DNA of 64,000 nucleotides from Candidatus Micrarchaeota archaeon. Its GTDB lineage: Archaea > Micrarchaeota > Micrarchaeia > Norongarragalinales > UBA97. Of the stretch, positions 10,814 to 28,397 are shown piece after piece. The stretch covers positions 19,460 through 83,459 of the forward strand of contig JACQBR010000001.1 in NCBI GenBank assembly GCA_016194335.1, in the 5' to 3' direction. Made by a program: the position numbers and the translations under genes. A model generated the notes under the pieces. It searched no databases and was not told the DNA's origin. It was given only the letters and a program-made list of their open reading frames with translations. Each line of letters begins with the position of its first letter. Position 1 is the stretch's first letter.

Positions 10814-10827
10814 GGGCCCACCTCATT

Positions 10828-11136: not shown

Positions 11137-11287
11137 TCAGACCAACCCTGTTTGCGTTTCAATATAATCGTAAACGGCCGCCTATTTATCCGTTTCCTTC
11201 CAGACCGCTCCGCAGACCGGTGCAGCCGCCTGATTTCTTCAGTTTGCTATTTTAACCGCCGTCGCCTAATTGCTGCGAGTGCGCTTT

Positions 11288-12013: not shown

Positions 12014-12069
12014 TGAGGCGCGAAGGAATGGAAATGGGAGTTGCCCGTGCGACACGCCGGCCGGGGGGA

Positions 12070-12735: not shown

Positions 12736-12745
12736 GGTTTCAAGA

Positions 12746-13267: not shown

Positions 13268-13352
13268 GGCGGTTAGGTGAAGAGATTCGGCAGTGGGAAT
13301 TCTGGAAAGTGAAACGGCAATTTGATGATGGCTGATGATATGGAGAAGAAAG

Positions 13353-14492: not shown

Positions 14493-15656
14493 TCATCCGT
14501 TTTTCTTGATGTCCACTTCCTCGTTGCAGTGGGGGCAGACGTAAGTGAGCTTGCCCGCGTCGGCCTTTATGCCGGCCGCGCAGCTGGCGCACATCGCCCC
14601 GCCGCAGTAGGGGCAGAAGACCGTGCGCTTGGTGGCCTTGCGGCAGTTGGGGCAGGCGGCATCTGAGGCGGTGGAAGCGGAAGGCGGATTTGCGGGCGCG
14701 GACGCTTGCGGGGAGGGCGGCTTTTCGCCTGCAGCCGCCTCGAGCTGGTCAAATAGGCTGTTTCCCTGGGATGGCAGTTGGGGTGCGTTCTCCCCCGCGG
14801 GCATTGAGGCAATTTCGCCGAAAAGCGATTTTTCTTCAGTTGCCGAGAGCTTGTTTTTTTCAGCGGTTTCCCTGCGTTCCGGCTCACGTTGCGATGGTTG
14901 CGGCTTCGGTTCAACTTGCCTTCCCTGCCTGCTTTCCTGCGCCTGCTGCGGGGGTTGGGCCGCGGGTTTCCGGTTTGCAATCTTTTGCTGCACGAGAAGC
15001 TCCTCGGCCATCAGGTCGACGTTGTCCTCGGGTTGGGGCTCCTCGGTTTTGGCGGGCTCCGCGACGGCTTCGGCCTGTTCGGCTGGCGGTTGGGCATGCG
15101 CTTCGCTTTCCGCAGGTGCGGCGCGCCTCTCCCTGTCGAGGTAGAGCCTGTGCTGGGGCCTTGAGTAGTCCACGAACTTTTTCTGCGATTCCGTCTTCAC
15201 TTCGGGAAGGGAGGTTTCGGAAGGCGGCCGGTTATCCCTCTCAATTTCGGGTTGTTCATTGTCTTTCCCAGCGTCGGGCGGTTGGCTGTTTGCCGAGGAT
15301 TCCGGCGGCGTTTCCGCCTGCGTTGTTTGGGTTGTGGCGGTTGCGGAGTCGTTCTCTTGTGCCGGGGTTGCCTGCAGGGCGGTTGTCGGATTATTTCCTT
15401 GCGCAGGGGGGGTTTGATTGTTGTACGGCGGCGAGGGAGGCCTGGGGATGGGTGGGATGATTCCCCTCATTCCCCTTCCCTCTTGGGATTGCGCAGGAGG
15501 GTTGAGCGCGCCGCGGTTGATGGTGAACTGCGCGGGCCGGTCATCTTGTTTTGTTCGTTCTCGCATTTCCCCCTGCCCGTCGGCATTCTGCGCCTTGAGG
15601 GCAAGCAGCCTTTTTTTCACTTCATCCATCGATTGCGAATCAAGGGGCATTTGCAA
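14493..15656 (-). CDS. low-complexity P/Q/E-rich protein with C-terminal double zinc ribbon
   Basis: 387 aa; C-terminus CPNCRK..CPYCGG..CASC..CPHCNEE (four CxxC pairs); ~300 aa compositionally biased linker; N-terminal 40 aa non-biased. Confidence 0.5.
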   Translation of the reverse strand: MQMPLDSQSMDEVKKRLLALKAQNADGQGEMRERTKQDDRPAQFTINRGALNPPAQSQEGRGMRGIIPPIPRPPSPPYNNQTPPAQGNNPTTALQATPAQENDSATATTQTTQAETPPESSANSQPPDAGKDNEQPEIERDNRPPSETSLPEVKTESQKKFVDYSRPQHRLYLDRERRAAPAESEAHAQPPAEQAEAVAEPAKTEEPQPEDNVDLMAEELLVQQKIANRKPAAQPPQQAQESRQGRQVEPKPQPSQREPERRETAEKNKLSATEEKSLFGEIASMPAGENAPQLPSQGNSLFDQLEAAAGEKPPSPQASAPANPPSASTASDAACPNCRKATKRTVFCPYCGGAMCASCAAGIKADAGKLTYVCPHCNEEVDIKKNG

Positions 15657-15671: not shown

Positions 15672-16358
15672 TCACTTGATTCCCATTTCGTCCATTATTT
15701 CCTCGAACGTCTTCCTTCTCACGGGGCCCGCAACTGGCAGTTCCTTTGCGGGTTTTTTTGAGGCCGGTGAAACGTTCCGGATGTCGGGAGGCGCAATCCC
15801 GTCCATGCTCTTCCCGCGCGGAACGTTGGGAATTCCGGTTGCCTCAAGCGTGCTTGGAGATTTCAAAGGGGACTGCCATTCCCGCTGATTTGAAGATGCG
15901 AATGCCAGTTCTTCCTGCGGTTTCCTGATTGTCTGCGGGACGGTTGCGGGGCGCACTGCGCCGCCGGCTCTTACGACCTTCACTTCAGGTTCCGGGGCAA
16001 CAGGCGCGGCGGGACGGGCGGGAGTGCGCGTTTTCGGCCAAACCGAATCAAATGCCCTCAGTGCGAGGGCCGCAATTGTGCAGAAGGCAAGAAGCAAGGC
16101 GGCGAACTCACCGGAAGAGGAGAGCGCGGCTTGGCGGCCTGAAACAACAAGGTCAATTCCGAATGCAGCCAGCACGGCAACTATCCCCACAACCGCCCCG
16201 TAGCCCATCTTGGATGCAGCGTCCCATTCCCGCGAGCGTTTAACCCCAAGCCTCACCAGGGGATAGCCTATTGAGAATGCCCCCGCCATGAAGGCGAGGT
16301 AGAATGCGCCCGTTGATACCGCGTCGGCCATGTTGATGAGTAGAAGAGAGCTAGGCAA
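15672..16358 (-). CDS. membrane protein (3-4 TM) with disordered C-terminal tail
   Basis: 228 aa; 16 nt upstream of zinc-ribbon gene on same strand (likely operon); hydrophobic N-half, P/A-rich C-half. Confidence 0.5.
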   Translation of the reverse strand: MPSSLLLINMADAVSTGAFYLAFMAGAFSIGYPLVRLGVKRSREWDAASKMGYGAVVGIVAVLAAFGIDLVVSGRQAALSSSGEFAALLLAFCTIAALALRAFDSVWPKTRTPARPAAPVAPEPEVKVVRAGGAVRPATVPQTIRKPQEELAFASSNQREWQSPLKSPSTLEATGIPNVPRGKSMDGIAPPDIRNVSPASKKPAKELPVAGPVRRKTFEEIMDEMGIK

Positions 16359-16396: not shown

Positions 16397-16648
16397 ATGC
16401 CTGCGGACCTCATTACCGAAGCTTGGCTCGTACTGCTGCTTTCCCTAGTGCTCTCCGGCCTCGCCCTCCCGTTCGTGTTCGTCTTCTCCTTCGTGCAGTC
16501 TTATTTCGAAAGCCGCAACCCGAAGGCCCCCCGCGTGCTCCTCATGGCACTCACCACTTTCCTCGCCGTCCTGTGCGCAGTGGCGCTTCTGGAGATTTAC
16601 CTCGGCTACACAATCGGCGACCTCGCCGGCGCCCTTGCGCCAAAATAA
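16397..16648 (+). CDS. small hydrophobic protein (2 TM)
   Basis: 83-aa ORF, two hydrophobic helices; no homology signal. Confidence 0.3.
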   Translation: MPADLITEAWLVLLLSLVLSGLALPFVFVFSFVQSYFESRNPKAPRVLLMALTTFLAVLCAVALLEIYLGYTIGDLAGALAPK

Positions 16649-16791: not shown

Positions 16792-17088
16792 ATGAACAAT
16801 CATACTGCTATGACCAATCGTATGCGGACCGTAATCCTCAACGACCGGGGGCAGATTGTCATTCCGGAGGAAGTGAGGGAGGGAATGGGCCTCAAGCCCG
16901 GCGAGGCGCTCGTGCTTCTTGAGGTGGGCAAGGAAATCCTCCTTAGGAAAGAGGCGTCGGTGGTCAGGGACCTGGTGGAGATTGAGGGCGAACGGCGCTT
17001 CTGGAGGGCATTGTCGGAAAAGTCGCTTGAACGGGCGTGGGACCGCGAGGATGAGGCTTGGGAAAAGCACGCCCCGGCAAGAGGGTGA
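16792..17088 (+). CDS. mazE: AbrB/MazE/SpoVT-family antitoxin
   Basis: GQIVIPEEVREGMGLKPGEALVL swapped-hairpin motif; overlaps downstream toxin gene. Confidence 0.7.
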   Translation: MNNHTAMTNRMRTVILNDRGQIVIPEEVREGMGLKPGEALVLLEVGKEILLRKEASVVRDLVEIEGERRFWRALSEKSLERAWDREDEAWEKHAPARG

Positions 17089-17093
17089 TTGCG

Positions 17094-17429
17094 ATGCGCC
17101 AGGCGGACGTTTATTGGCTAAGTTTTCCTTATTCCGACCTCGGCGGGGAAAAGCACCGCCCCGCACTCGTCATTTCCAACGACGGCTACAACCGCCAGGG
17201 CGATGACATTTTCGTCTGCGCGATTACGACGAACCTCTCCAAAAGGCCCTTTTCCGTCCCTCTGGAGCCGAAGGACTTTTCCGAAGGCAGTTTGCCCCTT
17301 CCCAGCCGGGTGAGGTGCGACAAGATAATGAGCGTGGAAAAGGGATTGCTCTACAAGAAGGCAGGCCGCGTTTCCGACGCAAAGTTCGGCCAAGTCGGGA
17401 GGCAATTGGCCCTGCTCATCGCCCGTTAG
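17094..17429 (+). CDS. mazF: MazF/PemK-family endoribonuclease toxin
   Basis: MRQADVYWLSFPY..GGEKHRPALVISNDGYN..DIFVCAITTN signature; start at internal Met of ORF 17058..17429. Confidence 0.8.
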   Translation: MRQADVYWLSFPYSDLGGEKHRPALVISNDGYNRQGDDIFVCAITTNLSKRPFSVPLEPKDFSEGSLPLPSRVRCDKIMSVEKGLLYKKAGRVSDAKFGQVGRQLALLIAR

Positions 17430-17495
17430 CCATCCGTGATTTGCTCTCAAATCCGCTTGTTATTTAAATTCCGCGATGCTATTCTAAACCTTAGG

Positions 17496-20400
17496 ATGCG
17501 CCCTGCCCACTTCACGGTTTTCGTCTTCATCCTCCTAGCCGCGGAAATCGTTTCTCCCTTCGCTTTTGCCCAGCAATCCCCCTCTCCGACGGAGAGTTCG
17601 CGTTCCATCCCAATAGCTTCGAGCTTTCCCGCCTCACCGCCCCAAGACGCGCAAGGCGCTTCCCCCTTCACGGGCCTTCAGGTGGCGGGCCAAGCGGGAG
17701 GCTCAAGCGGGTTAACCTCAAGCGGCGCAGCATCTTCCGGCGTACCATCGACTTCCTCTTCATCAGCCCCAGCTTCCGCCATTCCCCCCTCAACCGCGCC
17801 AGTCCAAGTCGGCGCTTGCGTGATTAGCGAACTCACCCCCCAGCAGTCGCTCAACTTCCTCAATGCCGTGAGCGGATTCACGGGAAAGGAAGTTACCGAC
17901 CGCAGCGACGCCTCCCTGCGCAAGAACGCAACCACGAGCCCCACGCAAATCGTGAATGTCTACAACTTTCCCGTAGAGGACAGTGCGAGCTTCATGAAGC
18001 TGGGCCAACTTGCCCAAATCACCGGCAGGGGCGCAAAGGAACTTGCCGACGAGCTGGGCGTGGATGACGATAAGGACGCCGACGGCAAGGTGACAACGCC
18101 TGCCGCGGATAAGGAAGTCACCGTCGCGCAGGCAAGCGCGCTCGTGCAGAAGGACCCCAAGCTCTCCGGCCTGTTGGGGCAAATCCGCGCGGCGGCGCAG
18201 ACGAAAAAAAACGTCGCCACCGGCCCGGGTTTTGAGGACCTCAAAGTCACTCTCCCAAACGGGAAGGAAGTGCAGCTTTCCGAGATGTTCAAGCTTCAGA
18301 AGCTGCGCGCCAGCCCGGGGCAGAAAAACTCCTGCCTTGTCGACAACGCCGACATCCGCGGCAAACTCACCTACAACGCGCTGCTGGACAAGAGCTTAAT
18401 CATGGGAGCTCTCAAGTCCAACCTGAGTTCGGATGAATACGACAACTCCAACACCGACCATTTGGGCACTGATTACATCCGGGCGGGCATCAACAGTTAC
18501 GACGGCAACATCGTAATTCCGCACGAATACGAGCGTGCAGTGATGGAAATGGGTTCATGGGTAGGTTGGGACATCATTCTCTCCTCCGCACTTGCAATAG
18601 GCTCATTTTACGACGTGAAATTCGCGGAGAAAAACCTCGCGAACACCGAAAAGCAGATTGAGGCCAGCAAGGAGACGGCAGACACGTTCAGGTACATCCT
18701 CAGCCAGCAGGGAAGCAGGACGCCCACGGGCGACGCTATAGGCCAGCGCATCAGGCAGGCTTACGGCCGGGCGGGAATCGGAAACCTCGCAAGGATGACC
18801 GAGGGAGAGGTGACTGAAATCAAGGCGCCGATCAAGGCGTTTCTTGAAGATAAGCTAGCCACGGGGGCTGGAAAGACCGAACTCGCAACGCTTTTTGAAT
18901 CGAAGGGATGGGACAAGAGCAAAATAGAGGCCGTAACTGCCGGTTCGGCTTCACCTTCGGAAATTGAGGAATTAAGCAAGGAAGTTTCTGGCAACATCGC
19001 GGGCCAGAAAGACATCGCATCGCAAGTGAGTTCGATTTACGATTTCGTGCCGAAAAAAAGCGCGGTGGAAGGGCTCACAAAGCAGGTCAGCAATATCGAC
19101 GAGTCGCTGGTGGAACTGGGTTCTTCCACCGTGAACAAGCTTTCTCTTGAAAACAAGCTGAAGGCAAGCGGTATGGAAGAGCAGGTGAAATCCGTTTTTG
19201 GCAAGCCGACCATTTCCGACGCTATTACGGAGGCACTTAGCGCCCCTGCGGAAACCGGCAAGCTGGAGAAGCTGCTTAAGGACGGCAGGCTTGAAACGCA
19301 AAACCGCATTTCATTTCTGGACCAATACGGCATTTCTTCGGGCGAGGAGGCAATCCAGTCCAAGCTCGGAAAGCAGGCGGGGCTTGAGGACGCGCAGGCG
19401 CGGCTGCAGAGCGAGCAGGCGATTGCGGAGAAGGCATTTTCACTGGGCAAGCGGCGCGCGTGGACCAACATCGTGATGGGCACGCTCTGGCTTGGTCCGG
19501 GCAGGCTGGGGCTCGAGTTGGCTGGCGTGATTACGCTCTCAAGCGTCGGGAAGCCGTCGGAGCGCACGGGCGATTACCTGAAGATTTTTGCCAACAGCAA
19601 GCCCGCCGAGGCGTTCAGGAAGGGCACGGACGTTCTTCTCATCGGCCATTTTCTTGAAACCATTTCCAACTTCCTTCCAATCACCGCGCCTTCCAAAGTC
19701 TATCAGATGGATGACGTGGTTTTCACCCAAGTGCCCGGCGATACCGGCAAGGAGACCCAAGCTTTCACCTCCATACGGCAAGTCCAAGGAGATTGGAATG
19801 TCAACACCAACTGGCCCGGCGATTCAACCTCAACCGCATTTGAGGACGTGCGGGACGGCAAGGCCGTGACTACGATGGCGGTTGCGACCAACAACCTCGC
19901 AATCGGAGGGACATTCAAGCGCAAGGCGGAAGGGACGGAGTATTACAAGAGCCTCCTTTACATCGCGCCGCTTTTGGGCTGGCGGCTGCTTGGGGACAAG
20001 ACCGCCGAAATCAGGGGCTTGCAGACTATTCTTCAGATTGAGGGGCTGCAGTATTACATAGAGAAAATCGTCGACCCGTCCGCGTTTAGCGGCAAGGACG
20101 CATGTTCTGACGAGCAGCTTGACTCTTACGTCAACGGTTTCAAGGCTGCCACTACCGCCACAATTGCGGAGCAGGTGATTTTCTTCTCGCCATTCTCGCC
20201 CGAATTCGCGCCTGTTGTAACATTACTCAAGACCATAGGTCCCATCAATGCAGTTTCGAAAAGCTGGCCGGGGTTGGCGCTTTCAAAAGCCGGCACCATT
20301 TATTCAAGGGTGGGTCCGTTTGTCGACCCGTTCGAGGCGTGGAAGCAGACCGCGCAGTCGCGCGTGTACAACTACGCCCTCAATTGCAAAGACTCCGCCT

Positions 20401-22811
20401 ACAAGATTCTCTCCTATCAGAACATCCCCCAAAAGAGCGCGAAGGCCAACGTGCTGCAGTCCATCCAGAAGAAGGTATCCGACCCTCTCGGCGTTCCGCA
20501 AATCACAAAGAGCCTCAACATCGGCGAGGCGTTCAAGGGCATCGGGGCGCAGGTGAGGGCAAAGGACCTCAAGGAAATCCTCAATGTCAAGGTGCTCCTG
20601 CAAAACCAGAACGGCCTCCTGCGGCCGTCGGAGCTTTACTACCTCCACCTCGACCCGGAGGGTGCTGACATGCAGTGGTGGGGCGTGTTTGAAAACCAGT
20701 GCTTCCGGCGCTGCCAGGTGCAGGCGGACGGCACGTTCATCTGCGCGGACAACACCGGGGTGTACCGCGAGAAGGACGGCAAGCGCGAATACCTCACCGA
20801 CAGCGACCACGCCCTGTTTTCGCAGCTGATTCCGGGATTGGGCCAGGTCATTCCCAACAAGATCATTTCAACGCCGCTTTCCTGCGGGGCCAAGCCCGTC
20901 TTTGCCGCAAGCGGGGACGGCAAGTTCAAAATCATTCCCGGAGGGTGCACCGCAACCGAGTGCGCCATCAGGGCGCTTTCAATCGTGAGCGGGCAGAACG
21001 TTGGGAATGATTTGGACAAGGTGCTCGGCCCCACGCAGGCCATCCACACCACGCAGGGCACTGCGGTGATTGCAGACGGGGGCATTCGGTTCTTCAGGAC
21101 AACGGGCGTGAAGGTGAGCGAGCGCAACACCGTTCTGGGCTATATCCCGACAATAGGCTCCAAAGACGCTATTAACGGAGAGCAGCAGAAGGCGAACGCA
21201 AGCGGCTTTTACCAACAGCAGCAGAGCCTCGCGGGGAGGGAATACCGGTTTTCAACACTTGAGTTTCTCGGCGACGGAACGGTTCGCGTGGCGGGCAGCG
21301 ACAAGCCCGAAGAGCAGTTCGGCGAGCTTCTCACCGTCCAGTCGCAAAATGCCGTGATGCACTTCGACCGCGCCACCCGCAGGCTCGTGATCGGGCTGCA
21401 GCTTTTTGCCGACCCCGTGGCGGCGCACGACATTACCGGCATCGCCACTTCCGCCGCGACGGTCACGGGAGGAAAGTCCGACCTCCTCGCGCTCGAGCGC
21501 CAGCTTGCCGACCTCAATTCCAAACTCGCGTCGGGACAGCAGCTGAATGCCCAGCAGCTTGAACTTCTCCGCAAATCAATTGAGAAAAACTCCGCCCCGG
21601 CGCAGGCGGGCTTCACGCAGGCTGAAAGGGATTTGCTCAAGCAGGCGCTTGCCGACAAGAACGCGGGCAAGCCGCTTTCGCAAGCGGAGGCGGACATCGT
21701 CACCAAATCACAGCAACAGCAGCCCTACCCCGGCGTGATCATCGTGTCCCTGCCTTCTGCCGAAAAGATTGACAAGGCCGCTTCCGACGCAGGAGTGGGC
21801 GATTCCGTCAAGGGAGCGACGAACAAAATGCGCGACAGCCTGCCCGTCAGCGTTGATGACAAGAACGCCGTGAACGCCGCGCTGGACAAGGCGGTTGCGG
21901 CGAACAAACTTACGGCAGCAGACGCCGCCCAGCTTAAGACTCAAGTGCAGCAGGCAGTCCCTCCCGCGGAAAAGGCGCGGGAAATCACCGCCGCAATCGC
22001 ATCGGGCGCCGACCTCACTCCCGAGCGGAAGCTGCTTGCGCAGCAGGCGGTTGCGCAGGAGAAGGCGTCGGTGGGCCAGCAGGCCGCCACCGCCACTGGC
22101 GGCCAGATTCCCGCAATCCAGTTGGGCGGCGTGACGAGCAAGGTCGGCGCGGAGCAGAGTGCACAGGGCCTCAACCGCGCTCTTGAGAAACTCGGCGGGC
22201 TTACTCAATTCGATTCCGAAAACAGGCGCGTTGTGATTGTTGACGACGGAAAGGGCGGCGCGGTGGTGCGGGTGACGGACAAGACCGGTGCAACGTCCGC
22301 GCAGGAACTCAAGGTCACGGGCGCGCCCACAAAAGACGCCAACGGCGCGGTTTCGATTCCCACGGACAAGGGGCCGGTGAGCATTGCGGTGAACGTCAAT
22401 CCTTCAACGGGCCAGCCTGTGTTCAACCTCAACGGCCCCGGCGGCATCAGCGCACCCGCCACGCCACTCATCTTCGCGCAGGGGCCGAATGGCTACCTGT
22501 GGTTCGACCCCAAGACGGGCACTTGGCGCACGGGCAACGGCATGGTAATTCCCGACGACCCGAATTTCGGCAAGAACGGCATCAGCTTTTACGGCGGCCA
22601 GGACGGCACGACGGGGCTTGCGGACCAGAACCGGTTTGCCAACCCGCGCCAGCAGCAAATCAGCCCCTACGCCAGCAACAACCCCCTCCTCTCACTGCCA
22701 AGCGTGCCGGATTACGGGAGGGAGCCGCTTGCTGCAATGGCGATGCTCATCGCGCTGCTGTTGGGAGTGGCGTTCGTGCGCTCAAGGGAAGTTTCACCAA
22801 AAGGTATTTAG
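17496..22811 (+). CDS. giant (~1770 aa) secreted surface protein with N-terminal signal peptide and C-terminal transmembrane anchor
   Basis: Signal peptide MRPAHFTVFVFILLAAEIVSPFAFAQQ; S/A/Q-rich and helical repeat regions; Cys-containing segments; C-terminus ..EPLAAMAMLIALLLGVAFVRSRE hydrophobic anchor + basic tail. Confidence 0.7.
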   Translation: MRPAHFTVFVFILLAAEIVSPFAFAQQSPSPTESSRSIPIASSFPASPPQDAQGASPFTGLQVAGQAGGSSGLTSSGAASSGVPSTSSSSAPASAIPPSTAPVQVGACVISELTPQQSLNFLNAVSGFTGKEVTDRSDASLRKNATTSPTQIVNVYNFPVEDSASFMKLGQLAQITGRGAKELADELGVDDDKDADGKVTTPAADKEVTVAQASALVQKDPKLSGLLGQIRAAAQTKKNVATGPGFEDLKVTLPNGKEVQLSEMFKLQKLRASPGQKNSCLVDNADIRGKLTYNALLDKSLIMGALKSNLSSDEYDNSNTDHLGTDYIRAGINSYDGNIVIPHEYERAVMEMGSWVGWDIILSSALAIGSFYDVKFAEKNLANTEKQIEASKETADTFRYILSQQGSRTPTGDAIGQRIRQAYGRAGIGNLARMTEGEVTEIKAPIKAFLEDKLATGAGKTELATLFESKGWDKSKIEAVTAGSASPSEIEELSKEVSGNIAGQKDIASQVSSIYDFVPKKSAVEGLTKQVSNIDESLVELGSSTVNKLSLENKLKASGMEEQVKSVFGKPTISDAITEALSAPAETGKLEKLLKDGRLETQNRISFLDQYGISSGEEAIQSKLGKQAGLEDAQARLQSEQAIAEKAFSLGKRRAWTNIVMGTLWLGPGRLGLELAGVITLSSVGKPSERTGDYLKIFANSKPAEAFRKGTDVLLIGHFLETISNFLPITAPSKVYQMDDVVFTQVPGDTGKETQAFTSIRQVQGDWNVNTNWPGDSTSTAFEDVRDGKAVTTMAVATNNLAIGGTFKRKAEGTEYYKSLLYIAPLLGWRLLGDKTAEIRGLQTILQIEGLQYYIEKIVDPSAFSGKDACSDEQLDSYVNGFKAATTATIAEQVIFFSPFSPEFAPVVTLLKTIGPINAVSKSWPGLALSKAGTIYSRVGPFVDPFEAWKQTAQSRVYNYALNCKDSAYKILSYQNIPQKSAKANVLQSIQKKVSDPLGVPQITKSLNIGEAFKGIGAQVRAKDLKEILNVKVLLQNQNGLLRPSELYYLHLDPEGADMQWWGVFENQCFRRCQVQADGTFICADNTGVYREKDGKREYLTDSDHALFSQLIPGLGQVIPNKIISTPLSCGAKPVFAASGDGKFKIIPGGCTATECAIRALSIVSGQNVGNDLDKVLGPTQAIHTTQGTAVIADGGIRFFRTTGVKVSERNTVLGYIPTIGSKDAINGEQQKANASGFYQQQQSLAGREYRFSTLEFLGDGTVRVAGSDKPEEQFGELLTVQSQNAVMHFDRATRRLVIGLQLFADPVAAHDITGIATSAATVTGGKSDLLALERQLADLNSKLASGQQLNAQQLELLRKSIEKNSAPAQAGFTQAERDLLKQALADKNAGKPLSQAEADIVTKSQQQQPYPGVIIVSLPSAEKIDKAASDAGVGDSVKGATNKMRDSLPVSVDDKNAVNAALDKAVAANKLTAADAAQLKTQVQQAVPPAEKAREITAAIASGADLTPERKLLAQQAVAQEKASVGQQAATATGGQIPAIQLGGVTSKVGAEQSAQGLNRALEKLGGLTQFDSENRRVVIVDDGKGGAVVRVTDKTGATSAQELKVTGAPTKDANGAVSIPTDKGPVSIAVNVNPSTGQPVFNLNGPGGISAPATPLIFAQGPNGYLWFDPKTGTWRTGNGMVIPDDPNFGKNGISFYGGQDGTTGLADQNRFANPRQQQISPYASNNPLLSLPSVPDYGREPLAAMAMLIALLLGVAFVRSREVSPKGI

Positions 22812-22871
22812 CCCACTCCGGACTGAATTTGTTCTAATCGCTACCCGCCCCTTTAGGAGATTGCAAAACAA

Positions 22872-25145
22872 ATGGCCGAAGGAACTTTTTCCCGCATGAA
22901 AAGCTGGTGGAAGGGCATCATCCTGGGCAATGTCGTCACCTCAAACTGGCGGCGCTATGTAGCCGACCCTTGGCGACGGGGGTTGTGGTATCTTGGTGCG
23001 ACGAGGCTGGGCACGACGGGCAAGTGGGACGCGGGCGAGATGGTGATGCGAGGCGGCATGTGGTACCGTTTTCACTACAACCAGGCGGCAGCTTTCCATG
23101 CGTACAGACAAGTGGGCGAAGGCGGGAGTGCGATGGGGATTAATATGTCCTTCCCCACGGCTGGCAATCCCAACAGCAACCTGGTGATGGTCCCCGCCCA
23201 GAGGCCGCATTTCCTGGCGTGGATGTGGATGGCGATGTTCAACCGTAATGCACTCCAGCCAATTGGCATCCAGGCGCCCAACTGGACGCCCGGGGACATC
23301 ATGCGCTATTTCCGCGAATGGCGCTACTACGGTTACACGCCCGCTGCGGACATTCCCAACGAATTGCGTGGGCTTTACCTTGACGGCGTGGGGCTCAGCT
23401 ACGGAAAGACAAAGGAGGAGGCCGCCGGGGATTTGGGCAAGTGGCTCACCGACCCGGCCGGCCAGACCGTTTCACTCCAGTTCCTCAAGGAAATCTTCGT
23501 AAAGCGGTTCAGGGCCAACGGCGTTTTCGCAATCACTTCCGACATCCTCGCGGACGCCCTGAGCAAGCACACGATTTACGACGACGACGTTGTAGGCGGG
23601 GGCTACACGGAGGACGGTTCGTATGTGGAGCCGCCGGTAAAGTCGCGTTTCGTTCCGGGAAGTGGATTTGCCGGCTACCCGCAGGGAGAGCCGGTTTCCC
23701 GCTCCCAGCAAGAATTGAGGGACGAGTTCAACCGCGTGAGGACCCGTTGCGATGAAATCACCAAGCAAATGGCAAAGATGGGCAAGGACTTTGAAAACAA
23801 CCGCGCGGCCCTGGAAAAGCTCGACGATAAGGAAAGACTGATTGATGAAGAGGAGGAGTTCAAAAAGAAGACTTTGGAACTTGCCCGCGAGAAGGCGGAC
23901 TTGGTGCGGGGTTTCAAGGAAAAGCGCGACGCGGCCTGTGCCACGTCCCGCGCAAGGCTATACCAGCTGGACGAGCTTTCCCCCGAGCAGGTAATCAAGC
24001 TTTACAACTATTTTCTCGAGAACACCATGCTTGACGCGCGCCGGGAGCTGAACAAGGAAGAGGAGTACAACGATTATCTCTTCCAGAAATACCTTGGGGG
24101 AAAGAAGATTGGTGACGTTTACGAGTTTGCAGTCCACGGCCTCACTGGCGCGGCCACGCTCGAATCCCACAATCTCCCCCTCGGGAAATGGCGGGGGATG
24201 CGCAACCTCATGCGCAACAGCATGGGAATCGTCGGGTTCGGCTGGCAGAACCTTCCCGCCGAGGTGGGCGGGAATGCGAAAATCGAATTTGCCATGGGCC
24301 GGGACTTCTGGCCCACTCTCACGCCGGTTTACATGAGCAAGGCGCGGCGCTTTCTCGCAACGCTTAACGAGAAGGACGGCCGCATAACCGACTGGGCCAT
24401 CAAGTCAGGCTGGGACGTGGCGAGCGTGCTGGAGTGGTACCGCCAGTCGATAAAGGGCAACGGCTACCGCTGGCTGCGCAAGGGGATTCTCGACGACTAC
24501 CAGGACATTGCGGCGAAGTTTGCCGACATCATGGGCGTGCCCGACATGGTCACCGACATCCAGCTTAACCTGCACACCTACTCAAACCACGATTCAGGAG
24601 AGGAGTGGGACGCCATGCGCCGCTCGCTTGCCGCATTCAAGGGGGACTTGGAGCTTACCCTGCCTCAATACGTGATTGAGGGATATCCCGGTGGCGGGTC
24701 GAGATACATCGCAAAGCGCCTAACCAAGCGGTTCAACCTCATGCAGAGCGCCGTTGCAATGCTGGCGCAGATGCAGAAGTCGGCAGATCAGGAGAAAAAG
24801 TTCGACGCGATGAAGTTGCTTATGACGCAGGACTTGCAGGCAACAAAAAGGGAGGACCTCGACATGATTGAGCGGGAGGCCGCGGCGCGGGGCGGTAGCA
24901 CGCGGGAAAGGAACAAGTTCAAAGCGCATTTGGAGGCAATGTATAGCCGGCACTGGCTTTCAAAGGATGAAACTGGAGTGAATCCGGAAGATCAGGCATC
25001 CCAGATGATAGCGCTTGTGGAGCGGTACCGCGACCTTTGGAAGCTCTTCGCACTTCCCGCCCTTCACGCCGACTTCCTCACTCCCGGAGGGGAGATTCCC
25101 TACGCGACTGCCGCAAAGCGCGGCCAGCCCATGCCCCACAATTGA
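22872..25145 (+). CDS. hypothetical protein (757 aa), Trp/aromatic-rich N-domain and central coiled coil
   Basis: Long ORF 60 nt after giant gene; no recognisable catalytic motifs; heptad-like charged stretch (residues ~270-400). Confidence 0.55.
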   Translation: MAEGTFSRMKSWWKGIILGNVVTSNWRRYVADPWRRGLWYLGATRLGTTGKWDAGEMVMRGGMWYRFHYNQAAAFHAYRQVGEGGSAMGINMSFPTAGNPNSNLVMVPAQRPHFLAWMWMAMFNRNALQPIGIQAPNWTPGDIMRYFREWRYYGYTPAADIPNELRGLYLDGVGLSYGKTKEEAAGDLGKWLTDPAGQTVSLQFLKEIFVKRFRANGVFAITSDILADALSKHTIYDDDVVGGGYTEDGSYVEPPVKSRFVPGSGFAGYPQGEPVSRSQQELRDEFNRVRTRCDEITKQMAKMGKDFENNRAALEKLDDKERLIDEEEEFKKKTLELAREKADLVRGFKEKRDAACATSRARLYQLDELSPEQVIKLYNYFLENTMLDARRELNKEEEYNDYLFQKYLGGKKIGDVYEFAVHGLTGAATLESHNLPLGKWRGMRNLMRNSMGIVGFGWQNLPAEVGGNAKIEFAMGRDFWPTLTPVYMSKARRFLATLNEKDGRITDWAIKSGWDVASVLEWYRQSIKGNGYRWLRKGILDDYQDIAAKFADIMGVPDMVTDIQLNLHTYSNHDSGEEWDAMRRSLAAFKGDLELTLPQYVIEGYPGGGSRYIAKRLTKRFNLMQSAVAMLAQMQKSADQEKKFDAMKLLMTQDLQATKREDLDMIEREAAARGGSTRERNKFKAHLEAMYSRHWLSKDETGVNPEDQASQMIALVERYRDLWKLFALPALHADFLTPGGEIPYATAAKRGQPMPHN

Positions 25146-25148
25146 AAC

Positions 25149-25991
25149 TTGGTGAGATGTGTCAAGATGGTTTTGGACATTGCGGCGATGTTGGGCCCCG
25201 AAATTAGCGGAGCGGTTACCGGATTCCTCAACGGGTGGGCTGGAAACATCAGGAAGGATGTGGAGCAGCGGCTCGACGAGGTCGGCGCCAAGGTCGCCCC
25301 CCAGATAATCCAGCACGAGATTGAGGAGGAGAAGGCCAAATACGTGCCGTTGTTGAAGACCGTGACCGTATTTGAAAAACTCAACCGCCACTGGCTTCTG
25401 CGTTCCGTGGGGTTTGACCGTCCGGTTGACAATTTCGCAAGGGCATTGGCGGCAAAGGCGGTGGAGAAGGCCAGTGCGAAAAGAGCGATGTCGCCAGGCG
25501 TTGAAAGAAGGCAGCGGGATGCCTATCGGACTTATTTCAGGAACTACCTCCATAAGGTGATGATGGGCTACGACGAGCCCCACCAGAGCCCCAAGGAATA
25601 CCTCATTGAGCAGTGGGGGGACATCGACCCGCAATGGAGGCTCTTTACCAAAAAGGAATTCGGGGAAATCCTGCTTGACGACGATTTTGAGAAGGTGAGG
25701 GCCCCTTATCTCACCATCCTCTCCAAAGGGCCGGGTTATTTCCAGTTCAGCAGGCGCCTCGATGATGCCGAAGGGGCCATTCGCGGCTCGCCGCTTCCTG
25801 CAGCCGCTAAAAGGGAATTGCGCTGGGTGGGCGGAAGCATAAGCAATGCAACGCTGAGGCTTTCGGGACATCCCGGCCACGGGTTCCGCTTCGGCGACCA
25901 AGTCAGACAGGAAATCCTCAATCACCAGCACGAGCATGCCGACGCGATAGTGACGCGAATCCTAAGGCGCGCAGGCTCCGTGCACCACTAG
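25149..25991 (+). CDS. hypothetical protein (280 aa)
   Basis: Starts 4 nt after previous gene (operon-like); no motif recognised. Confidence 0.5.
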   Translation: MVRCVKMVLDIAAMLGPEISGAVTGFLNGWAGNIRKDVEQRLDEVGAKVAPQIIQHEIEEEKAKYVPLLKTVTVFEKLNRHWLLRSVGFDRPVDNFARALAAKAVEKASAKRAMSPGVERRQRDAYRTYFRNYLHKVMMGYDEPHQSPKEYLIEQWGDIDPQWRLFTKKEFGEILLDDDFEKVRAPYLTILSKGPGYFQFSRRLDDAEGAIRGSPLPAAAKRELRWVGGSISNATLRLSGHPGHGFRFGDQVRQEILNHQHEHADAIVTRILRRAGSVHH

Positions 25992-26692
25992 TTTTTAGAG
26001 TAATCGGCTTTGGGTTGCACGGTCGTCCACATGGCGTTTGGCTTCCCGTGCCCAAGAATGCCAAGCTTGGCAATTTCCCTCTGGAGGTTGCGCACCATCT
26101 GCGCCCCGCCATTTCCTTCAAAAAGTGGAAGGTCGCTTCCCATCGGATAAGTAATGCCAATTGTCCGGTCCTGCGCCGTGATTGTGGGGCGGAATTCGGG
26201 GTCGTACTCGACCGGAATGAGAAGCTCCGTGCGGACAACGTCGGGATTGATTTCAACCGGCCGGGGGCCAAGCCCAATGAGCCTGCCCAAACTGAATTTC
26301 TTTTGGCTTTCTTGGATAATCGGCTTGTGGGCGCGAGAGATGGCTGCGGCAATCATGTCCAGGGCCTTATTCGCTTTCATGAGCTCTTTGGGGTCGCCGG
26401 CATTGTGGGGATTGCCGTAAATCATTTTCGTGGGAAAGCGCAGGCCCACGCGGTTGCCATAACGCGAAATCTCCACGAAGCTGCCAGGGGAAACTTCCAG
26501 GCGGTGGGTTTCCTCGGGGGCTTCTCCCCTGTTGGCGGGGGAGTAAAGCTCTTCCTTCAGGTTTGCGGGCTTTACGGGTTCTATCCTTGTGCGGGTGGTT
26601 TTGAGGTTCATACGATTAAGAGCTTCTGCACGCACGCTCTTAAAGTTTTCTAGAGGAGGCGGGCCAGTCTGGGGCGTTGGCGCCATCCGCAA
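25988..26692 (-). CDS. hypothetical protein (234 aa)
   Basis: Convergent ORF overlapping previous stop by 4 nt; no motif recognised. Confidence 0.45.
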   Translation of the reverse strand: MRMAPTPQTGPPPLENFKSVRAEALNRMNLKTTRTRIEPVKPANLKEELYSPANRGEAPEETHRLEVSPGSFVEISRYGNRVGLRFPTKMIYGNPHNAGDPKELMKANKALDMIAAAISRAHKPIIQESQKKFSLGRLIGLGPRPVEINPDVVRTELLIPVEYDPEFRPTITAQDRTIGITYPMGSDLPLFEGNGGAQMVRNLQREIAKLGILGHGKPNAMWTTVQPKADYSKN

Positions 26693-26729
26693 AACTTAAT
26701 ATACGCACGCCGCAACTAATTGCAAGAAC

Positions 26730-27212
26730 GTGATTGTGATGAATCTGAAGCCCCGGCGCGAGGAGGCATTGTGGACAGACGAGTTCGACCTCAGGTACTC
26801 CGCGCCCGTGAAGAGGGCAGTCCTCAAGGCCCATCAAGGAATTGTCGGTCCGCCTTCCCCTCCGGATGATTTGAAGGCTCTTGCGCACAGGATGATTGAC
26901 GAAGGGGTTTCCCTCGGGTATTACCGCTCGGACGCACCCGCGGACGAGCACATCGAAAGGCGGAAAGCGCAGGACAGGCGGAAGACCGTAATTCCCGCTC
27001 CCGTTCCCGGCGACCGGAGGGTGGGTGACCAGCGCTCGGCCGTTCCCCCCTCCATTCCCGAAGCTGACCTTCTCAAGGCCGCCGCTGCGTTGCGCATCAA
27101 CGAGATTCTGGCAGGTACGGCCAATCACGGGAAAAGGGAGAAGGAAATGCTTGAGCATTTCCTGCAATACTACAAACGCGCGTACGACCTCGGGAAGGAA
27201 AACGCGCCTTAG
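26730..27212 (+). CDS. hypothetical protein (160 aa)
   Basis: ORF with charged, R/D-rich composition; no motif. Confidence 0.45.
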   Translation: MIVMNLKPRREEALWTDEFDLRYSAPVKRAVLKAHQGIVGPPSPPDDLKALAHRMIDEGVSLGYYRSDAPADEHIERRKAQDRRKTVIPAPVPGDRRVGDQRSAVPPSIPEADLLKAAAALRINEILAGTANHGKREKEMLEHFLQYYKRAYDLGKENAP

Positions 27213-27224
27213 GAGGTAATCTTT

Positions 27225-28007
27225 TTGTACGGTCATCCAACTGAGCAGATGGAAGGCGCTGAGAAGCAGGTGAAGGCCCATCCGGGCTTTAGGCTGCCTT
27301 GGTATGTAAGGTTTGCCCACGCCGTGGGGCTTCGCGGGTGGGCGGAACGGAAGGCGGAGAAGCATTTTCAGAACTATTCCAAGCTCATCGCATACAAAGT
27401 TTCCCAATTCAGCCAAGCCCTCGATAAAATTGGCAAGGTGGAAGAGCTGCACAATTCCTATTCAGCAACCAAGACCGAGCTTGAAAAGGAAGCGGAAGGG
27501 TTCAGCGCCAAAACCAGAGATTCGGCGCTAACTTACGACGAACTTGAGGAAATGCACCACCGGGCCGCGGAAAAGTTTGGAGTTCTGCAGAAAAACGCCC
27601 AGAAACTCGTACAGCTTGGCAATACCCTCTCCTCGGTGAAGGTCTACCTTCAAGAAGAGCACGAGCGGATTAACTCGCTTCATTTAATCGCGAGCAATTA
27701 CGCCCTCTCCCAAATGGAAGCATCCAACAAGCTCCGCGCGCAGGTTGAGGAGTTGGACGGAATGACCGCGGACTTCGAGGCCAAGGAAATCTCCCAATCG
27801 GCCCTTGAGGAAGAGCTAAGCGAACTTTCAAAAAAGGTGGAGCGGATGAAAGACCTTCTGAAAAGGCGGGAGCCGGCATCCCCAACTGGCGCGACCAGTC
27901 CGGTTTCGGCCTCGCCTTCCGGCTCTTCAGGAAGGGGTGGCGCCACCCGGGAAAAAGACGCGGACCTGCGGGACCGGTACGGCCGCTTCGAACATCTGGA
28001 ACTTTAG
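27225..28007 (+). CDS. coiled-coil hypothetical protein (260 aa)
   Basis: Heptad-rich E/K/L sequence, S/G/P-rich tail; follows previous gene by 12 nt. Confidence 0.5.
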   Translation: MYGHPTEQMEGAEKQVKAHPGFRLPWYVRFAHAVGLRGWAERKAEKHFQNYSKLIAYKVSQFSQALDKIGKVEELHNSYSATKTELEKEAEGFSAKTRDSALTYDELEEMHHRAAEKFGVLQKNAQKLVQLGNTLSSVKVYLQEEHERINSLHLIASNYALSQMEASNKLRAQVEELDGMTADFEAKEISQSALEEELSELSKKVERMKDLLKRREPASPTGATSPVSASPSGSSGRGGATREKDADLRDRYGRFEHLEL

Positions 28008-28325
28008 CCTTCCGCCTTAGTTTTGTTGTCCCTTATCTTCTCAATGGGCGAAGCCTCTGCATTTGCACGGGAGCGGCTTGGGCAATGTGAAATCTTTTGA
28101 GGGTTCCCATTGCACTATGCACTTCGGGGGGCATTCTTCCTCCCTCTTGCGCCAACCCCGCATCAAAAGTTTCCACGTGCCCCAAGTGCTCTCTAAATGT
28201 CGCGTAGCAGTTCGCCTATCTTTTATGGCAGCCCCTTGCAAGCCTTATGATTGCCAAATCTGAAGTTCCTCTTGTACCGGCCATTCAAATCACCGCAGTA
28301 ATTTTTGGGGGCTTTGAAAAAACAG

Positions 28326-28397
28326 AGCCTCGGACGAGAATCGGACTCGCAACCTCCTGCTTACCATGCAGGCGCTCTGCCACTGAGCTACCGAGGC
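28326..28397 (-). tRNA. tRNA-Thr (anticodon GGU)
   Basis: Reverse complement GCCUCGG-UA-GCUCAGUGGCAGAGC-G-CCUGC-AUGGUAA-GCAGG-AGGUU-GCGAG-UCCGAUU-CUCGU-CCGAGGC-U folds as cloverleaf; T-loop has unusual U54-C55. Confidence 0.65.

What the first reader, a model, noticed from the sequence alone, without database searches (positions are those of the whole stretch)
16792..28397. Candidate uncharacterised accessory module: giant surface protein plus five co-directional unknown genes, bounded by mazEF and tRNA-Thr
Five ORFs with no recognisable motifs lie between mazEF and the 3' end of tRNA-Thr(GGU): 757, 280, 234, 160 and 260 aa, several coiled-coil rich, mostly with 4-60 nt spacing. They follow the giant surface-protein gene. 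TA module plus tRNA flank is the classic signature of an integrated or accessory island, yet no integrase, transposase or phage hallmark is visible. The block may therefore encode a novel surface-structure or host-interaction system.
Basis: inference. Interest (0 to 1): 0.7.

Follow-up and report, generated by a model that had tools for sequence, protein, structure and literature searches.

The report
Conserved pilus-linked surface gene cluster, not island
The block is not a mobile island. It is a stretch of the ordinary chromosome of a small group of Micrarchaeota (tiny symbiotic archaea), where a giant membrane-anchored surface protein and fast-evolving partner proteins of unknown function sit next to a type IV pilus gene set.

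Summary
The genes exist, but the island reading fails. However, the 234-aa ORF is on the minus strand, so the five are not co-directional.

Composition is ordinary. No copy of the tRNA end, integrase, phage, plasmid or defence signature was found.

The decisive evidence is synteny. The giant gene followed by the 757-aa family gene recurs in four other divergent Micrarchaeota lineages (34-44% identity where full length). Three of these show most of the accessory set. None has mazEF in the stretch held, and where the downstream flank is visible there is no tRNA-Thr next to the block.

In the window and in one relative, the block continues a type IV pilus-like locus: ATPase, platform protein and six or seven pilin-like genes. 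MazEF sits in what is a roughly 40-nt spacer in relatives.

The giant protein has a Sec signal, an S/T/P-rich linker, a non-repetitive Cys-bearing ectodomain and a conserved C-terminal motif plus membrane anchor. The five others have no export signals and evolve much faster than their neighbours.

Function is inferred only: a clade-specific, pilus-associated cell-surface or host-contact module. Structure predictions failed (pLDDT 31-43). Interest is moderate.

The parts
3163..6951 (+). Type IV pilus / T2SS-E family secretion ATPase. It is interrupted by a LAGLIDADG intein of about 505 aa (about nt 4792-6306).
   Evidence: Pfam T2SSE, Intein_splicing and LAGLIDADG_3. The L002 orthologue is 70-89% identical and lacks the intein.
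7384..9492 (+). T2SS-F / PilC / FlaJ-like membrane platform protein.
   Evidence: Pfam T2SSF, 28.0 bits against a cut-off of 25.2. It is 66% identical to the L002 orthologue.
9564..10291 (+). Two small pilin-like genes (163 aa and 62 aa). Each has a K/R-G motif followed by a hydrophobic N-terminus (class III signal type).
   Evidence: Translations. They are 65% and 50% identical to the L002 orthologues.
10325..11136 (-). PIN-domain toxin plus UPF0175 antitoxin pair, inserted into the pilin array. It is specific to this lineage.
   Evidence: Pfam PIN_6/DUF3368 and UPF0175. It is absent from L002, where the flanking genes are 35 nt apart.
11270..14288 (+). Four further pilin-like genes (247, 248, 173 and 317 aa) with N-terminal hydrophobic segments.
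   Evidence: Translations. They are 43-45% identical to the syntenic L002 genes.
14493..15656 (-). Low-complexity protein with a C-terminal zinc ribbon. It is conserved next to the giant gene.
   Evidence: Weak Pfam zinc-finger/DZR hits. Homologues occupy the same position in L002, L005 and L007.
15672..16358 (-). Membrane protein (228 aa) with two hydrophobic segments passing the hydropathy threshold.
   Evidence: Hydropathy analysis. Homologues occupy the same position in L002, L005 and L007.
16397..16648 (+). 83-aa two-helix membrane protein. It is the best conserved of the non-machinery genes and lies immediately upstream of the giant gene in relatives.
   Evidence: 59-65% identical to the L002, L005 and L007 copies. 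In relatives the spacer to the giant gene is about 40 nt.
16792..17429 (+). mazE-mazF type II toxin-antitoxin cassette. It is a lineage-specific insertion and not part of the conserved module.
   Evidence: Pfam. It is absent from L002, L005 and L007.
17459..17468 (+). TATA-like box (TTATTTAAAT) about 28 nt upstream of the giant gene's ATG.
   Evidence: Sequence. A similar A/T box sits at the same distance in L002, L005 and L007. Assigning it as a promoter is an inference.
17496..22811 (+). Giant type I membrane surface protein (1771 aa). Its parts are a Sec-type signal peptide, an S/T/P-rich linker, a non-repetitive ectodomain with invariant cysteines, a conserved NPLLxLPxWP motif, a single C-terminal transmembrane helix and a short basic tail.
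   Evidence: Homologues are 38-44% identical in four other lineages.
22872..25145 (+). 757-aa protein, the conserved partner of the giant gene. It has no signal peptide or transmembrane segment, a central long-helix region and the signature PQYVIEGYPG.
   Evidence: In the AF2 model only the helices at about residues 279-359 reach pLDDT 67-79. The gene follows the giant gene in five lineages.
25167..25991 (+). 274/280-aa protein with no export signal.
   Evidence: Homologues in L002 (E 5e-21) and L005. An HMM built from those two hits it at E 4.7e-25.
25988..26611 (-). 207/234-aa protein on the minus strand, convergent with the previous gene.
   Evidence: Gene calls. Family link is weak: the L005 and L002 copies match at E 1.5e-6, the L005 copy matches the window at E 0.037, and the HMM gives the top hit in the window at E 0.12.
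26739..27212 (+). 157/160-aa protein. Homology to the genes at the equivalent position in relatives is not demonstrable.
   Evidence: Gene calls. It shares only the LGYYR motif. The HMM found no hit.
27249..28007 (+). 252/260-aa coiled-coil protein with the conserved N-terminal motif LPxxVRFAHxVG. In relatives the homologue lies directly after the giant gene on the opposite strand.
   Evidence: (z = 9.7). SMC-like coiled-coil hits only.
28325..28397 (-). tRNA-Thr(GGU). It is adjacent by position only and not part of the module.
   Evidence: No repeat of it exists elsewhere in the window. In L002 and L007 an L40e gene lies shortly after the block, with no tRNA-Thr or NadE in between.

Best explanation
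**What it is.** The block is the distal part of a vertically inherited gene cluster specific to one Micrarchaeota clade. It is not an integrated element.

**Cluster layout.**
- It begins with a type IV pilus-like machine: a secretion ATPase, a platform protein and six or seven pilin-like proteins.
- It continues through three small conserved genes: a zinc-ribbon protein, a membrane protein with at least two hydrophobic segments, and an 83-aa two-helix membrane protein.
- It ends with the giant gene and its partners.

**Most likely working (inference).**
- The giant protein is exported by Sec. It is displayed on the cell surface on an S/T/P-rich, probably glycosylated linker. It is held by its C-terminal helix, or by a lipid anchor added after processing at the conserved NPLLxLPxWP motif.
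- It acts as an envelope or adhesion component used together with the pilus when the symbiont contacts another cell.
- The 757-aa protein and the four small proteins carry no export signal. They most likely act on the cytoplasmic side as assembly, scaffold or regulatory partners.
- Their very fast divergence suggests lineage-specific interactions rather than enzymatic housekeeping.

**What is unrelated.** MazEF, like the PIN/UPF0175 pair further upstream, is an unrelated toxin-antitoxin cassette that landed in an intergenic spacer. The neighbouring tRNA-Thr is coincidental.

**Shown:** gene content, topology features, conservation, synteny and the absence of island signatures.
**Inferred:** surface display, cooperation with the pilus, and the role of the partner proteins.
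For: **Synteny**
- Against L002 (MAG DeMMO2_14) the order is conserved: T2SSE 70-89%, T2SSF 66%, pilin-likes 43-65%, zinc-ribbon protein, membrane protein, 83-aa protein 67%, giant 40%, 757-aa 40%, 280-aa 26%.
- The giant gene is followed by the 757-aa family gene in L005, L007 and L008 too. That makes five lineages in total.
- L002 and L007 have no mazEF, and an L40e gene follows shortly after the block with no tRNA-Thr or NadE in between. L005 also has no mazEF.
- MazEF occupies what is a spacer of about 40 nt in relatives, upstream of a positionally conserved TATA-like box.

**No island signatures**
- Composition is ordinary.
- There is no repeat of the tRNA.
- There are no PHROG or PADLOC hits and no IMG/VR, plasmid or phage homologues of the 757-aa protein.

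**Topology**
- The giant protein has a signal peptide and a single C-terminal transmembrane helix. The five partners have neither.
- The C-terminal motif is conserved in five lineages.

**Divergence gradient in the closest pair, L002 against L005**
- Housekeeping neighbours 80-83%; 83-aa protein 88%; giant 77%.
- 757-aa 52%; 260-aa 47%; 234-aa 31%; 280-aa 30%; 160-aa 25%.

**Precedent**
- Archaeal type IV pilus loci often carry large surface proteins with a C-terminal transmembrane helix, or adhesins (PMC4858521).
- In the micrarchaeon Mia14, surface proteins are linked to pilus loci (PMC5498576).
Against: - No direct functional evidence exists.
- Both AlphaFold models were unusable (pLDDT 43 and 31), so no fold-based inference was possible.
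- The link to the pilus genes is visible in only two lineages. In the others the contig or the fetched stretch ends before that point.
- The giant gene seems to have its own promoter. The small genes change order and strand between lineages. Co-regulation with the pilus genes is therefore not shown, and adjacency could partly reflect general backbone synteny. The region also keeps the same downstream neighbours in several lineages (L40e, M23 peptidase, PCMT, the L3 ribosomal operon).
- Homology of the 160-aa ORF to its positional equivalents is not demonstrable.
Confidence: 0.6

Rival explanations
1. One reading: the block is a genomic island or integrated element that entered at the 3' end of tRNA-Thr and is stabilised by MazEF.
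For: A toxin-antitoxin pair lies at one end and the 3' end of a tRNA at the other. The genes are orphans restricted to very few lineages.
Against: - No integrase, recombinase or transposase was found.
- There is no att-like repeat of the tRNA.
- GC, GC3 and tetranucleotide composition are ordinary.
- The same genes sit in the same chromosomal context in four other lineages at 34-44% identity. None has mazEF in the stretch held, and no tRNA-Thr lies next to the block where the flank is visible.
- There are no viral or plasmid homologues.
Confidence: 0.04
2. The giant gene and its partners are a self-contained envelope module, for example an alternative S-layer-like coat with cytoplasmic assembly factors. 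On this view they merely sit beside the pilus locus because the whole region is conserved backbone, with no functional coupling to the pilus.
For: - The giant gene has its own conserved TATA-like box.
- Broader backbone synteny (L40e, M23 peptidase, PCMT, ribosomal operon) is also conserved.
- The pilus link is seen in only two lineages.
- The giant protein's architecture (signal peptide, S/T/P-rich linker, C-terminal anchor) is typical of archaeal envelope proteins.
Against: - The giant protein lacks the S_layer_N domain (PF05123) that characterises the known Micrarchaeota S-layer protein (bioRxiv 10.1101/2021.04.28.441871).
- The pilin array runs without a break into the three small genes that accompany the giant gene in every lineage where the upstream stretch is visible.
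Confidence: 0.25
3. The five fast-evolving proteins without signal peptides are cargo, not scaffold. They would be effectors delivered to the host cell through a contact apparatus formed by the pilus-like machine and the giant protein, or they would take part with the giant protein in membrane fusion or bridging.
For: - They diverge far faster than their neighbours and faster than the exported giant protein.
- They are conserved as a set next to a secretion-type ATPase and platform protein.
- The organism belongs to a group of host-dependent symbionts that rely on cell-cell contact (PMC5498576, PMC8975820).
- The giant ectodomain has an invariant Cys-bearing core and an invariant glycine-rich hydrophobic motif, WLGPGRLGLELAG.
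Against: - No precedent is known for an archaeal type IV pilus-like system exporting unsignalled cytoplasmic proteins.
- Fast divergence is equally expected for coiled-coil or low-constraint structural proteins.
- There is no structural evidence.
Confidence: 0.08
4. Some of the small ORFs (the 160-aa ORF in particular, possibly the 234-aa ORF) are not real genes. They could be chance ORFs or decaying remnants in a GC-rich sequence.
For: - The window has many long antisense ORFs.
- The 160-aa ORF has no detectable homologue.
- The family signal for the 234-aa ORF is weak (E 0.04-0.12).
Against: - Two independent gene callers call both ORFs.
- Their GC3 is gene-like (0.65-0.71) and higher than that of the overlapping alternative frames.
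- Genes of similar size occupy equivalent positions in relatives.
- The L002 and L005 equivalents are homologous to each other.
Confidence: 0.1

Closest known systems
Archaeal type IV pilus loci with associated large surface proteins (Makarova, Koonin and Albers 2016, PMC4858521). Examples are the Thermoproteales clade 4G loci, which carry a large 'S-layer-like' protein with a C-terminal transmembrane helix, and the Methanococci-type loci with DUF2341 PilY-like adhesins.
   Same: - A secretion ATPase, a platform protein and several fast-evolving pilin-like genes.
- These are followed by a very large exported protein with a C-terminal membrane anchor and conserved cysteines.
   Different: - The giant protein has no DUF2341 or any other recognised domain.
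- It is accompanied by a conserved set of non-exported proteins (the 757-aa family and others) that has no described counterpart in those loci.
- The distribution is limited to a handful of Micrarchaeota lineages.
Pilus-linked surface proteins of the micrarchaeon Mancarchaeum acidiphilum Mia14 (PMC5498576).
   Same: - The same phylum.
- Type IV pilus loci physically linked with large secreted proteins, which have been proposed to mediate host contact.
   Different: - The Mia14 proteins carry LamG, PKD, YVTN or CARDB domains, and some lie in predicted genomic islands.
- Here no known domain is present, composition is native, and the locus is syntenic across lineages.
Micrarchaeota S-layer protein SLP_Mh (bioRxiv 10.1101/2021.04.28.441871).
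   Same: - A large exported protein that is probably glycosylated.
- From the same phylum.
   Different: - SLP_Mh is about 101 kDa with an S_layer_N (PF05123) domain and is found in most Micrarchaeota.
- The giant protein here has 1771 residues, has no PF05123 match and occurs in very few lineages.
tRNA-integrated genomic islands stabilised by toxin-antitoxin modules.
   Same: A toxin-antitoxin pair and the 3' end of a tRNA flank a run of orphan genes.
   Different: - No integrase and no att repeat.
- No compositional deviation.
- The orphan genes are conserved in place in relatives that lack both flanking marks.

Membership tests
tRNA-integrated genomic island / integrative element | An integrase or recombinase gene inside the element. 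| tested here: not met
   No such domain was found in any ORF of 16.8-28.4 kb by Pfam, NCBIfam or PHROGs.
tRNA-integrated genomic island / integrative element | A direct repeat of the tRNA 3' part at the far boundary (att site). | tested here: not met
   The best matches to the tRNA plus 30-nt flanks anywhere in the window are 11-12 nt, at E >= 0.38. No repeat family involves the tRNA.
tRNA-integrated genomic island / integrative element | Composition that deviates from the host backbone. | tested here: not met
   Tetranucleotide L1 distance z-scores run from -1.5 to +1.2 across the windows lying within 14-30 kb. The most deviant windows lie at 28-36 kb, downstream of the block. GC3 matches that of housekeeping genes.
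tRNA-integrated genomic island / integrative element | Variable presence at a conserved site among relatives. | tested here: not met
   The block is present in the same context in L002, L005, L007 and L008. What varies is mazEF and the tRNA/NadE flank.
Type II toxin-antitoxin MazEF (applies only to 16792-17429) | An AbrB/MazE-fold antitoxin gene followed by an overlapping PemK/MazF toxin gene. | tested here: met
   PF04014 at 33.4 bits (cut-off 24.7). PF02452 at 80.6 bits (cut-off 23.1). The two genes overlap by 31 nt.
Archaeal type IV pilus-like locus (upstream part of the cluster) | A T2SS-E family ATPase and a T2SS-F family platform protein. | tested here: met
   PF00437 at 52 bits and PF00482 at 28.0 bits, both above their cut-offs.
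Archaeal type IV pilus-like locus (upstream part of the cluster) | Pilin-like substrates with class III signal peptides (a K/R-G motif followed by a hydrophobic helix). | tested here: met
   By inspection of the translations, for example MKKFARG|QAFETMMLVVSVIVALAILAVL and KRRG|QASWGVMEVLIAVILLGM. No dedicated predictor was run. No prepilin peptidase gene lies in the window.
Archaeal type IV pilus-like locus: is the giant block part of it? | Conserved physical linkage of the block to the pilus genes across lineages. | tested here: inconclusive
   The linkage is seen in the window (also in its near-identical copy L003; L009 shows only the last two pilin-like genes) and in L002. In L005, L007 and L008 the available DNA ends before the pilus region would begin.
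Micrarchaeota/archaeal S-layer protein (S_layer_N, PF05123) | An N-terminal S-layer domain. | tested here: not met
   The giant protein has no PF05123 hit even at E <= 1.
Repeat-built giant adhesins (Ig-like, cadherin, RTX and similar) | Tandem domain repeats or known adhesin domains. | tested here: not met
   The giant gene contains no tandem repeats beyond a single 50-nt trace. There are no Pfam adhesin domains. The only PDB profile signal is one propeller-blade-like stretch of about 30 aa.
Archaeosortase-type C-terminal sorting signals (PGF-CTERM and relatives) | A short conserved motif, then a transmembrane helix, then a basic tail at the extreme C-terminus, together with a cognate sortase. 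| tested here: inconclusive
   The three-part layout NPLLxLPxWP / transmembrane helix / R-rich tail is conserved in five lineages. No NCBIfam CTERM model matched. Whether the genome has a sortase could not be examined from this window.
Provirus or virus-derived element | Viral hallmark proteins, or homologues on viral contigs. | tested here: not met
   There are no PHROG hits. The 757-aa family has no relatives in IMG/VR or in GenBank phages.

The most novel reading that the evidence does not exclude
The giant protein, its conserved 757-aa partner and the four hyper-divergent unsignalled proteins would form, with the adjoining pilus-like machine, a previously undescribed DPANN host-contact apparatus. 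Either the giant protein would mediate membrane bridging or fusion, or the fast-evolving proteins would be delivered into the host cell.
Probability: 0.12. Interest if true: 0.8.

Novelty: new variant of a known kind. Interest (0 to 1): 0.4.

Why it matters
How DPANN archaea recognise and hold on to their hosts is largely unknown. Pilus loci and large surface proteins are the usual suspects, but few concrete gene sets have been defined.

This analysis turns an apparent 'island' into a defined, conserved module for a subsurface Micrarchaeota clade:
- a giant anchored surface protein;
- the 757-aa PQYVIEGYPG protein;
- the 280-aa protein and a coiled-coil protein;
- three small membrane or zinc-ribbon genes;
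- all joined to a type IV pilus-like locus.

The module shows a striking gradient of evolutionary rates. It is a concrete target for proteomics, cryo-tomography and structure prediction once more genomes are available.

It does not in itself reveal a new mechanism.

Tried and rejected
- **Word-indexed protein searches.** Searches with the 757-aa protein, alone and as a two-sequence profile, returned only the query itself. Yet a 40% identical homologue exists. Those negatives were therefore discarded as a limit of the tool.
- **Genome-collection scan.** It found only the contig already in hand. The metagenome scan with a seven-sequence alignment failed for lack of a conserved stretch. It worked with four sequences.
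- **AlphaFold2, 757-aa protein.** A four-sequence alignment gave pLDDT 43. Fold searches were not run because such models give meaningless matches.
- **AlphaFold2, giant protein core.** A two-sequence alignment gave pLDDT 31.
- **Profile searches against PDB sequences.** They gave only one propeller-blade-like motif and a weak TraC/VirB5 hit at E 0.018, judged to be a helical or compositional match.
- **Family libraries.** PHROGs, NCBIfam and PADLOC gave nothing for the block. The exception is SMC-like coiled-coil matches for the 260-aa protein, judged compositional.
- **Spacer between the block and the tRNA.** An Rfam scan found only the tRNA.
- **Promoter scan.** The sigma-70 promoter scan was not used, because the organism is an archaeon.

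Full report
**Origin and layout**

The 757-aa protein is identical to NCBI 'hypothetical protein HY095_00205 [Candidatus Micrarchaeota archaeon]'. The window also carries an archaeal ribosomal protein operon and SecY. It is therefore chromosomal DNA of a Micrarchaeota (DPANN) genome assembled from a metagenome.

GC content is about 57% and even across the window.

Gene order around the finding:
- LeuRS.
- A T2SS-E family ATPase carrying a LAGLIDADG intein, then a T2SS-F platform protein.
- Two small pilin-like genes.
- A PIN/UPF0175 toxin-antitoxin pair on the minus strand.
- Four more pilin-like genes.
- A zinc-ribbon protein and a membrane protein, both on the minus strand, then an 83-aa membrane protein.
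- mazE-mazF.
- The giant gene, then the ORFs of 757, 280, 234 (minus strand), 160 and 260 aa.
- tRNA-Thr(GGU) on the minus strand, then NadE and further genes.

**Checking the observation**

- MazE and MazF pass Pfam's curated thresholds.
- ARAGORN and Rfam both confirm the tRNA. Its 3' end faces the block.
- All six ORFs exist at the sizes stated.
- One point is wrong. The 234-aa ORF is on the minus strand. Two independent gene callers place a 207-aa gene there on that strand. The overlapping plus-strand ORF has lower third-position GC.
- The giant gene most likely starts at ATG 17496, giving 1771 aa. A TATA-like TTATTTAAAT lies about 28 nt upstream.
- None of the five ORFs matches any Pfam, NCBIfam, PHROG or PADLOC family. 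The only hits are coiled-coil-type matches for the 260-aa protein.

**Island tests**

All three go against an island.
- Tetranucleotide distance from the window mean stays within about -1.5 to +1.2 SD over the block. The most deviant part of the window is 28-36 kb, downstream of the tRNA.
- GC3 of the block's genes (0.65-0.755) matches that of housekeeping genes.
- No direct repeat involves the tRNA. A sensitive BLAST of the tRNA plus flanks against the whole window gives only 11-12 nt chance matches.
- No integrase, transposase or viral hallmark was found.
- The 757-aa family has no relatives on IMG/VR contigs, plasmids or phages.

**Synteny**

The giant protein has a 40% identical, full-length homologue (P0003) on contig JAGVFW010000005.1, 'MAG: archaeon isolate DeMMO2_14'. 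BLASTP of all window proteins against that locus (L002) shows the whole region in the same order:

| Gene | Identity to L002 |
|---|---|
| ATPase (no intein in L002) | 70-89% |
| Platform protein | 66% |
| Pilin-like genes | 43-65% |
| Zinc-ribbon protein (C-terminal part) | 35% |
| Membrane protein | 30% |
| 83-aa protein | 67% |
| Giant protein | 40% |
| 757-aa protein, over its full length | 40% |
| 280-aa protein (E 5e-21) | 26% |

- Genes of 187 aa (minus strand) and 153 aa occupy the places of the 234-aa and 160-aa ORFs.
- The 260-aa coiled-coil protein matches a 387-aa gene. That gene lies between the giant and the 743-aa gene on the opposite strand (27% identity; Smith-Waterman z = 9.7).
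- Both toxin-antitoxin pairs are missing from L002.
- In L002 an L40e gene follows the block shortly afterwards, with no tRNA-Thr or NadE in between.

Three more lineages were recovered:
- **L005** (ORJL010701590.1) has the zinc-ribbon, membrane and 83-aa genes and the giant gene. These are followed by a coiled-coil gene and a 177-aa gene on the minus strand, then an 835-aa, a 257-aa and a 209-aa gene.
- **L007** (GCA_964628495.1) has the same core. The 757-aa homologue is split by an assembly gap. L40e, an M23 peptidase, PCMT and the L3 ribosomal operon follow. The window has the same downstream neighbours.
- **L008** shows the end of a giant gene directly followed by a 1246-aa member of the 757-aa family.

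The giant gene followed by the 757-aa family gene is therefore conserved in five lineages.

**The MazEF insertion**

In L002, L005 and L007 the 83-aa gene and the giant gene are about 40 nt apart. An A/T-rich TATA-like box sits 25-30 nt before the ATG. In the window the same box is present, and the mazEF cassette lies between the 83-aa gene and it. MazEF is thus a lineage-specific insertion into a spacer, not a boundary marker.

**How rare the genes are**

An exhaustive phmmer search of 1.84 billion cluster representatives found only seven proteins related to the 757-aa protein at E <= 1e-3. Three of those reach E <= 1e-30.

The family core carries the signature PQYVIEGYPG.

One distant hit is a 149-aa stand-alone domain beside a NiFe-hydrogenase operon in an unrelated context (L006).

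The word-indexed searches missed the 40% homologue. Their negatives carry no weight.

**Anatomy of the proteins**

The giant protein has these parts:
- a Sec-type signal peptide (...PFAFA|QQ), not a pilin-type one;
- an S/T/P-rich segment of about 100 aa;
- a non-repetitive ectodomain of about 1,600 aa, with invariant motifs such as WLGPGRLGLELAG and MQWWGVFENQCFRxC and invariant cysteines;
- an Ala/Gln-rich helical stretch;
- a conserved C-terminal domain ending in NPLL(S/A)LP(S/G)(V/W)P;
- one transmembrane helix and a short basic tail.

The five other proteins have no hydrophobic segment that passes a transmembrane threshold. The 757-aa protein has a central pair of long helices, which is the only part of its model with pLDDT near 70-79. 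The 260-aa protein is mostly coiled coil.

**Evolutionary rates**

Identity in the closest pair of lineages, L002 against L005:

| Gene | Identity |
|---|---|
| Neighbouring housekeeping genes (NicO, aldo-keto reductase) | 80-83% |
| 83-aa protein | 88% |
| Membrane protein | 80% |
| Giant protein | 77% |
| Zinc-ribbon protein | 63% |
| 757-aa protein | 52% |
| Coiled-coil (260-aa) protein | 47% |
| 234-aa family | 31% |
| 280-aa family | 30% |
| 160-aa equivalents | 25% |

The five 'unknown' genes are therefore retained as a set while diverging much faster than their surroundings. An HMM built from the L002 and L005 copies gave these results against the window's 371 ORFs:
- the 280-aa ORF at E 4.7e-25;
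- the 260-aa ORF as top hit (E 0.04);
- the 234-aa ORF as top hit (E 0.12);
- no detection of the 160-aa ORF.

**Interpretation**

Shown:
- The block is native, vertically inherited and specific to one clade.
- It is contiguous with a type IV pilus-like locus.
- Its centrepiece is an exported, membrane-anchored giant protein with a constant 757-aa partner.

Inferred:
- The giant protein is a surface or adhesion component used together with the pilus.
- The unsignalled partners act from the cytoplasmic side.

Precedents exist. Archaeal pilus loci have been described with large 'S-layer-like' proteins carrying a C-terminal transmembrane helix, and with PilY-like adhesins (PMC4858521). In the micrarchaeon Mia14, surface proteins are linked to pilus loci and have been proposed to mediate host contact (PMC5498576).

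The giant protein is not a member of the known Micrarchaeota S-layer family, because it has no PF05123 match (bioRxiv 10.1101/2021.04.28.441871). It is also not a repeat-type adhesin.

Structure prediction could not add evidence. The alignments are too shallow and the models were unusable.

**Verdict**

- The vaguer suggestion of a surface or host-interaction system remains the best reading, but it is unproven.
- This is a new variant of a known kind, a pilus-locus-associated surface module built from wholly uncharacterised protein families. It is of moderate interest.

Noticed in passing
window 3163-6951 (intein about 4792-6306): The pilus/secretion ATPase gene is interrupted by a LAGLIDADG homing-endonuclease intein of about 505 aa. 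The intein sits about 70 residues downstream of the P-loop match (residues about 450-478). The 70-89% identical orthologue in L002 has no intein.
   Followed up: partly
window 10325-11136 (minus strand): A second toxin-antitoxin pair (PIN-domain toxin plus UPF0175 antitoxin) sits inside the pilin gene array. It is absent from L002, where the flanking genes are 35 nt apart. Both toxin-antitoxin pairs in this cluster are therefore lineage-specific insertions into intergenic spacers.
   Followed up: partly
window 28400-36100: - The stretch between tRNA-Thr(GGU) and tRNA-Thr(UGU) is the compositionally most deviant part of the window (GC 0.51-0.54; tetranucleotide z about +1.9).
- It holds two AAA_14/DUF4143 ATPases that match the PADLOC candidate defence family PDC-S01 (E 3e-44 and 6e-94).
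- In L002 and L007 the block is followed almost directly by L40e.
- If anything here is accessory, it is this stretch rather than the flagged block.
   Followed up: partly
window 22650-22811 (C-terminus of the giant protein); also L002, L005, L007 and L008: The motif NPLL(S/A)LP(S/G)(V/W)P lies a few residues before the single C-terminal transmembrane helix and basic tail, and it is conserved in all five lineages. This is the layout of a sortase-type C-terminal sorting signal. It matched no known CTERM model.
   Followed up: partly
L006 9893-10342: A 149-aa stand-alone protein carries the PQYAIEGYPG core of the 757-aa family. It lies just downstream of a NiFe-hydrogenase gene set in an unrelated contig, with no giant gene or pilus genes detected nearby.
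   Followed up: partly
L002 against L005, whole cluster: There is a steep gradient of divergence within one locus. Housekeeping neighbours and the 83-aa membrane protein are 80-88% identical and the giant protein 77%. The five proteins without export signals are only 25-52% identical. Whether this reflects positive selection or low constraint was not tested.
   Followed up: no
window 28008-28324: A 317-nt stretch with no called gene lies between the last gene of the block and the tRNA. Rfam finds nothing in it at E <= 0.1.
   Followed up: partly
window 33289-34384 (minus strand): Two adjacent secreted-looking proteins, the first with an M23 peptidase domain, have similar N-terminal parts encoded by a 61-nt direct repeat (77% identical). 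An M23 peptidase occupies the equivalent position in L007.
   Followed up: no
tool behaviour: The word-indexed protein search returned only the query for the 757-aa protein, although a full-length 40% identical homologue is in the same collection. Negative results from that tool should not be read as absence for proteins rich in coiled coil.
   Followed up: yes
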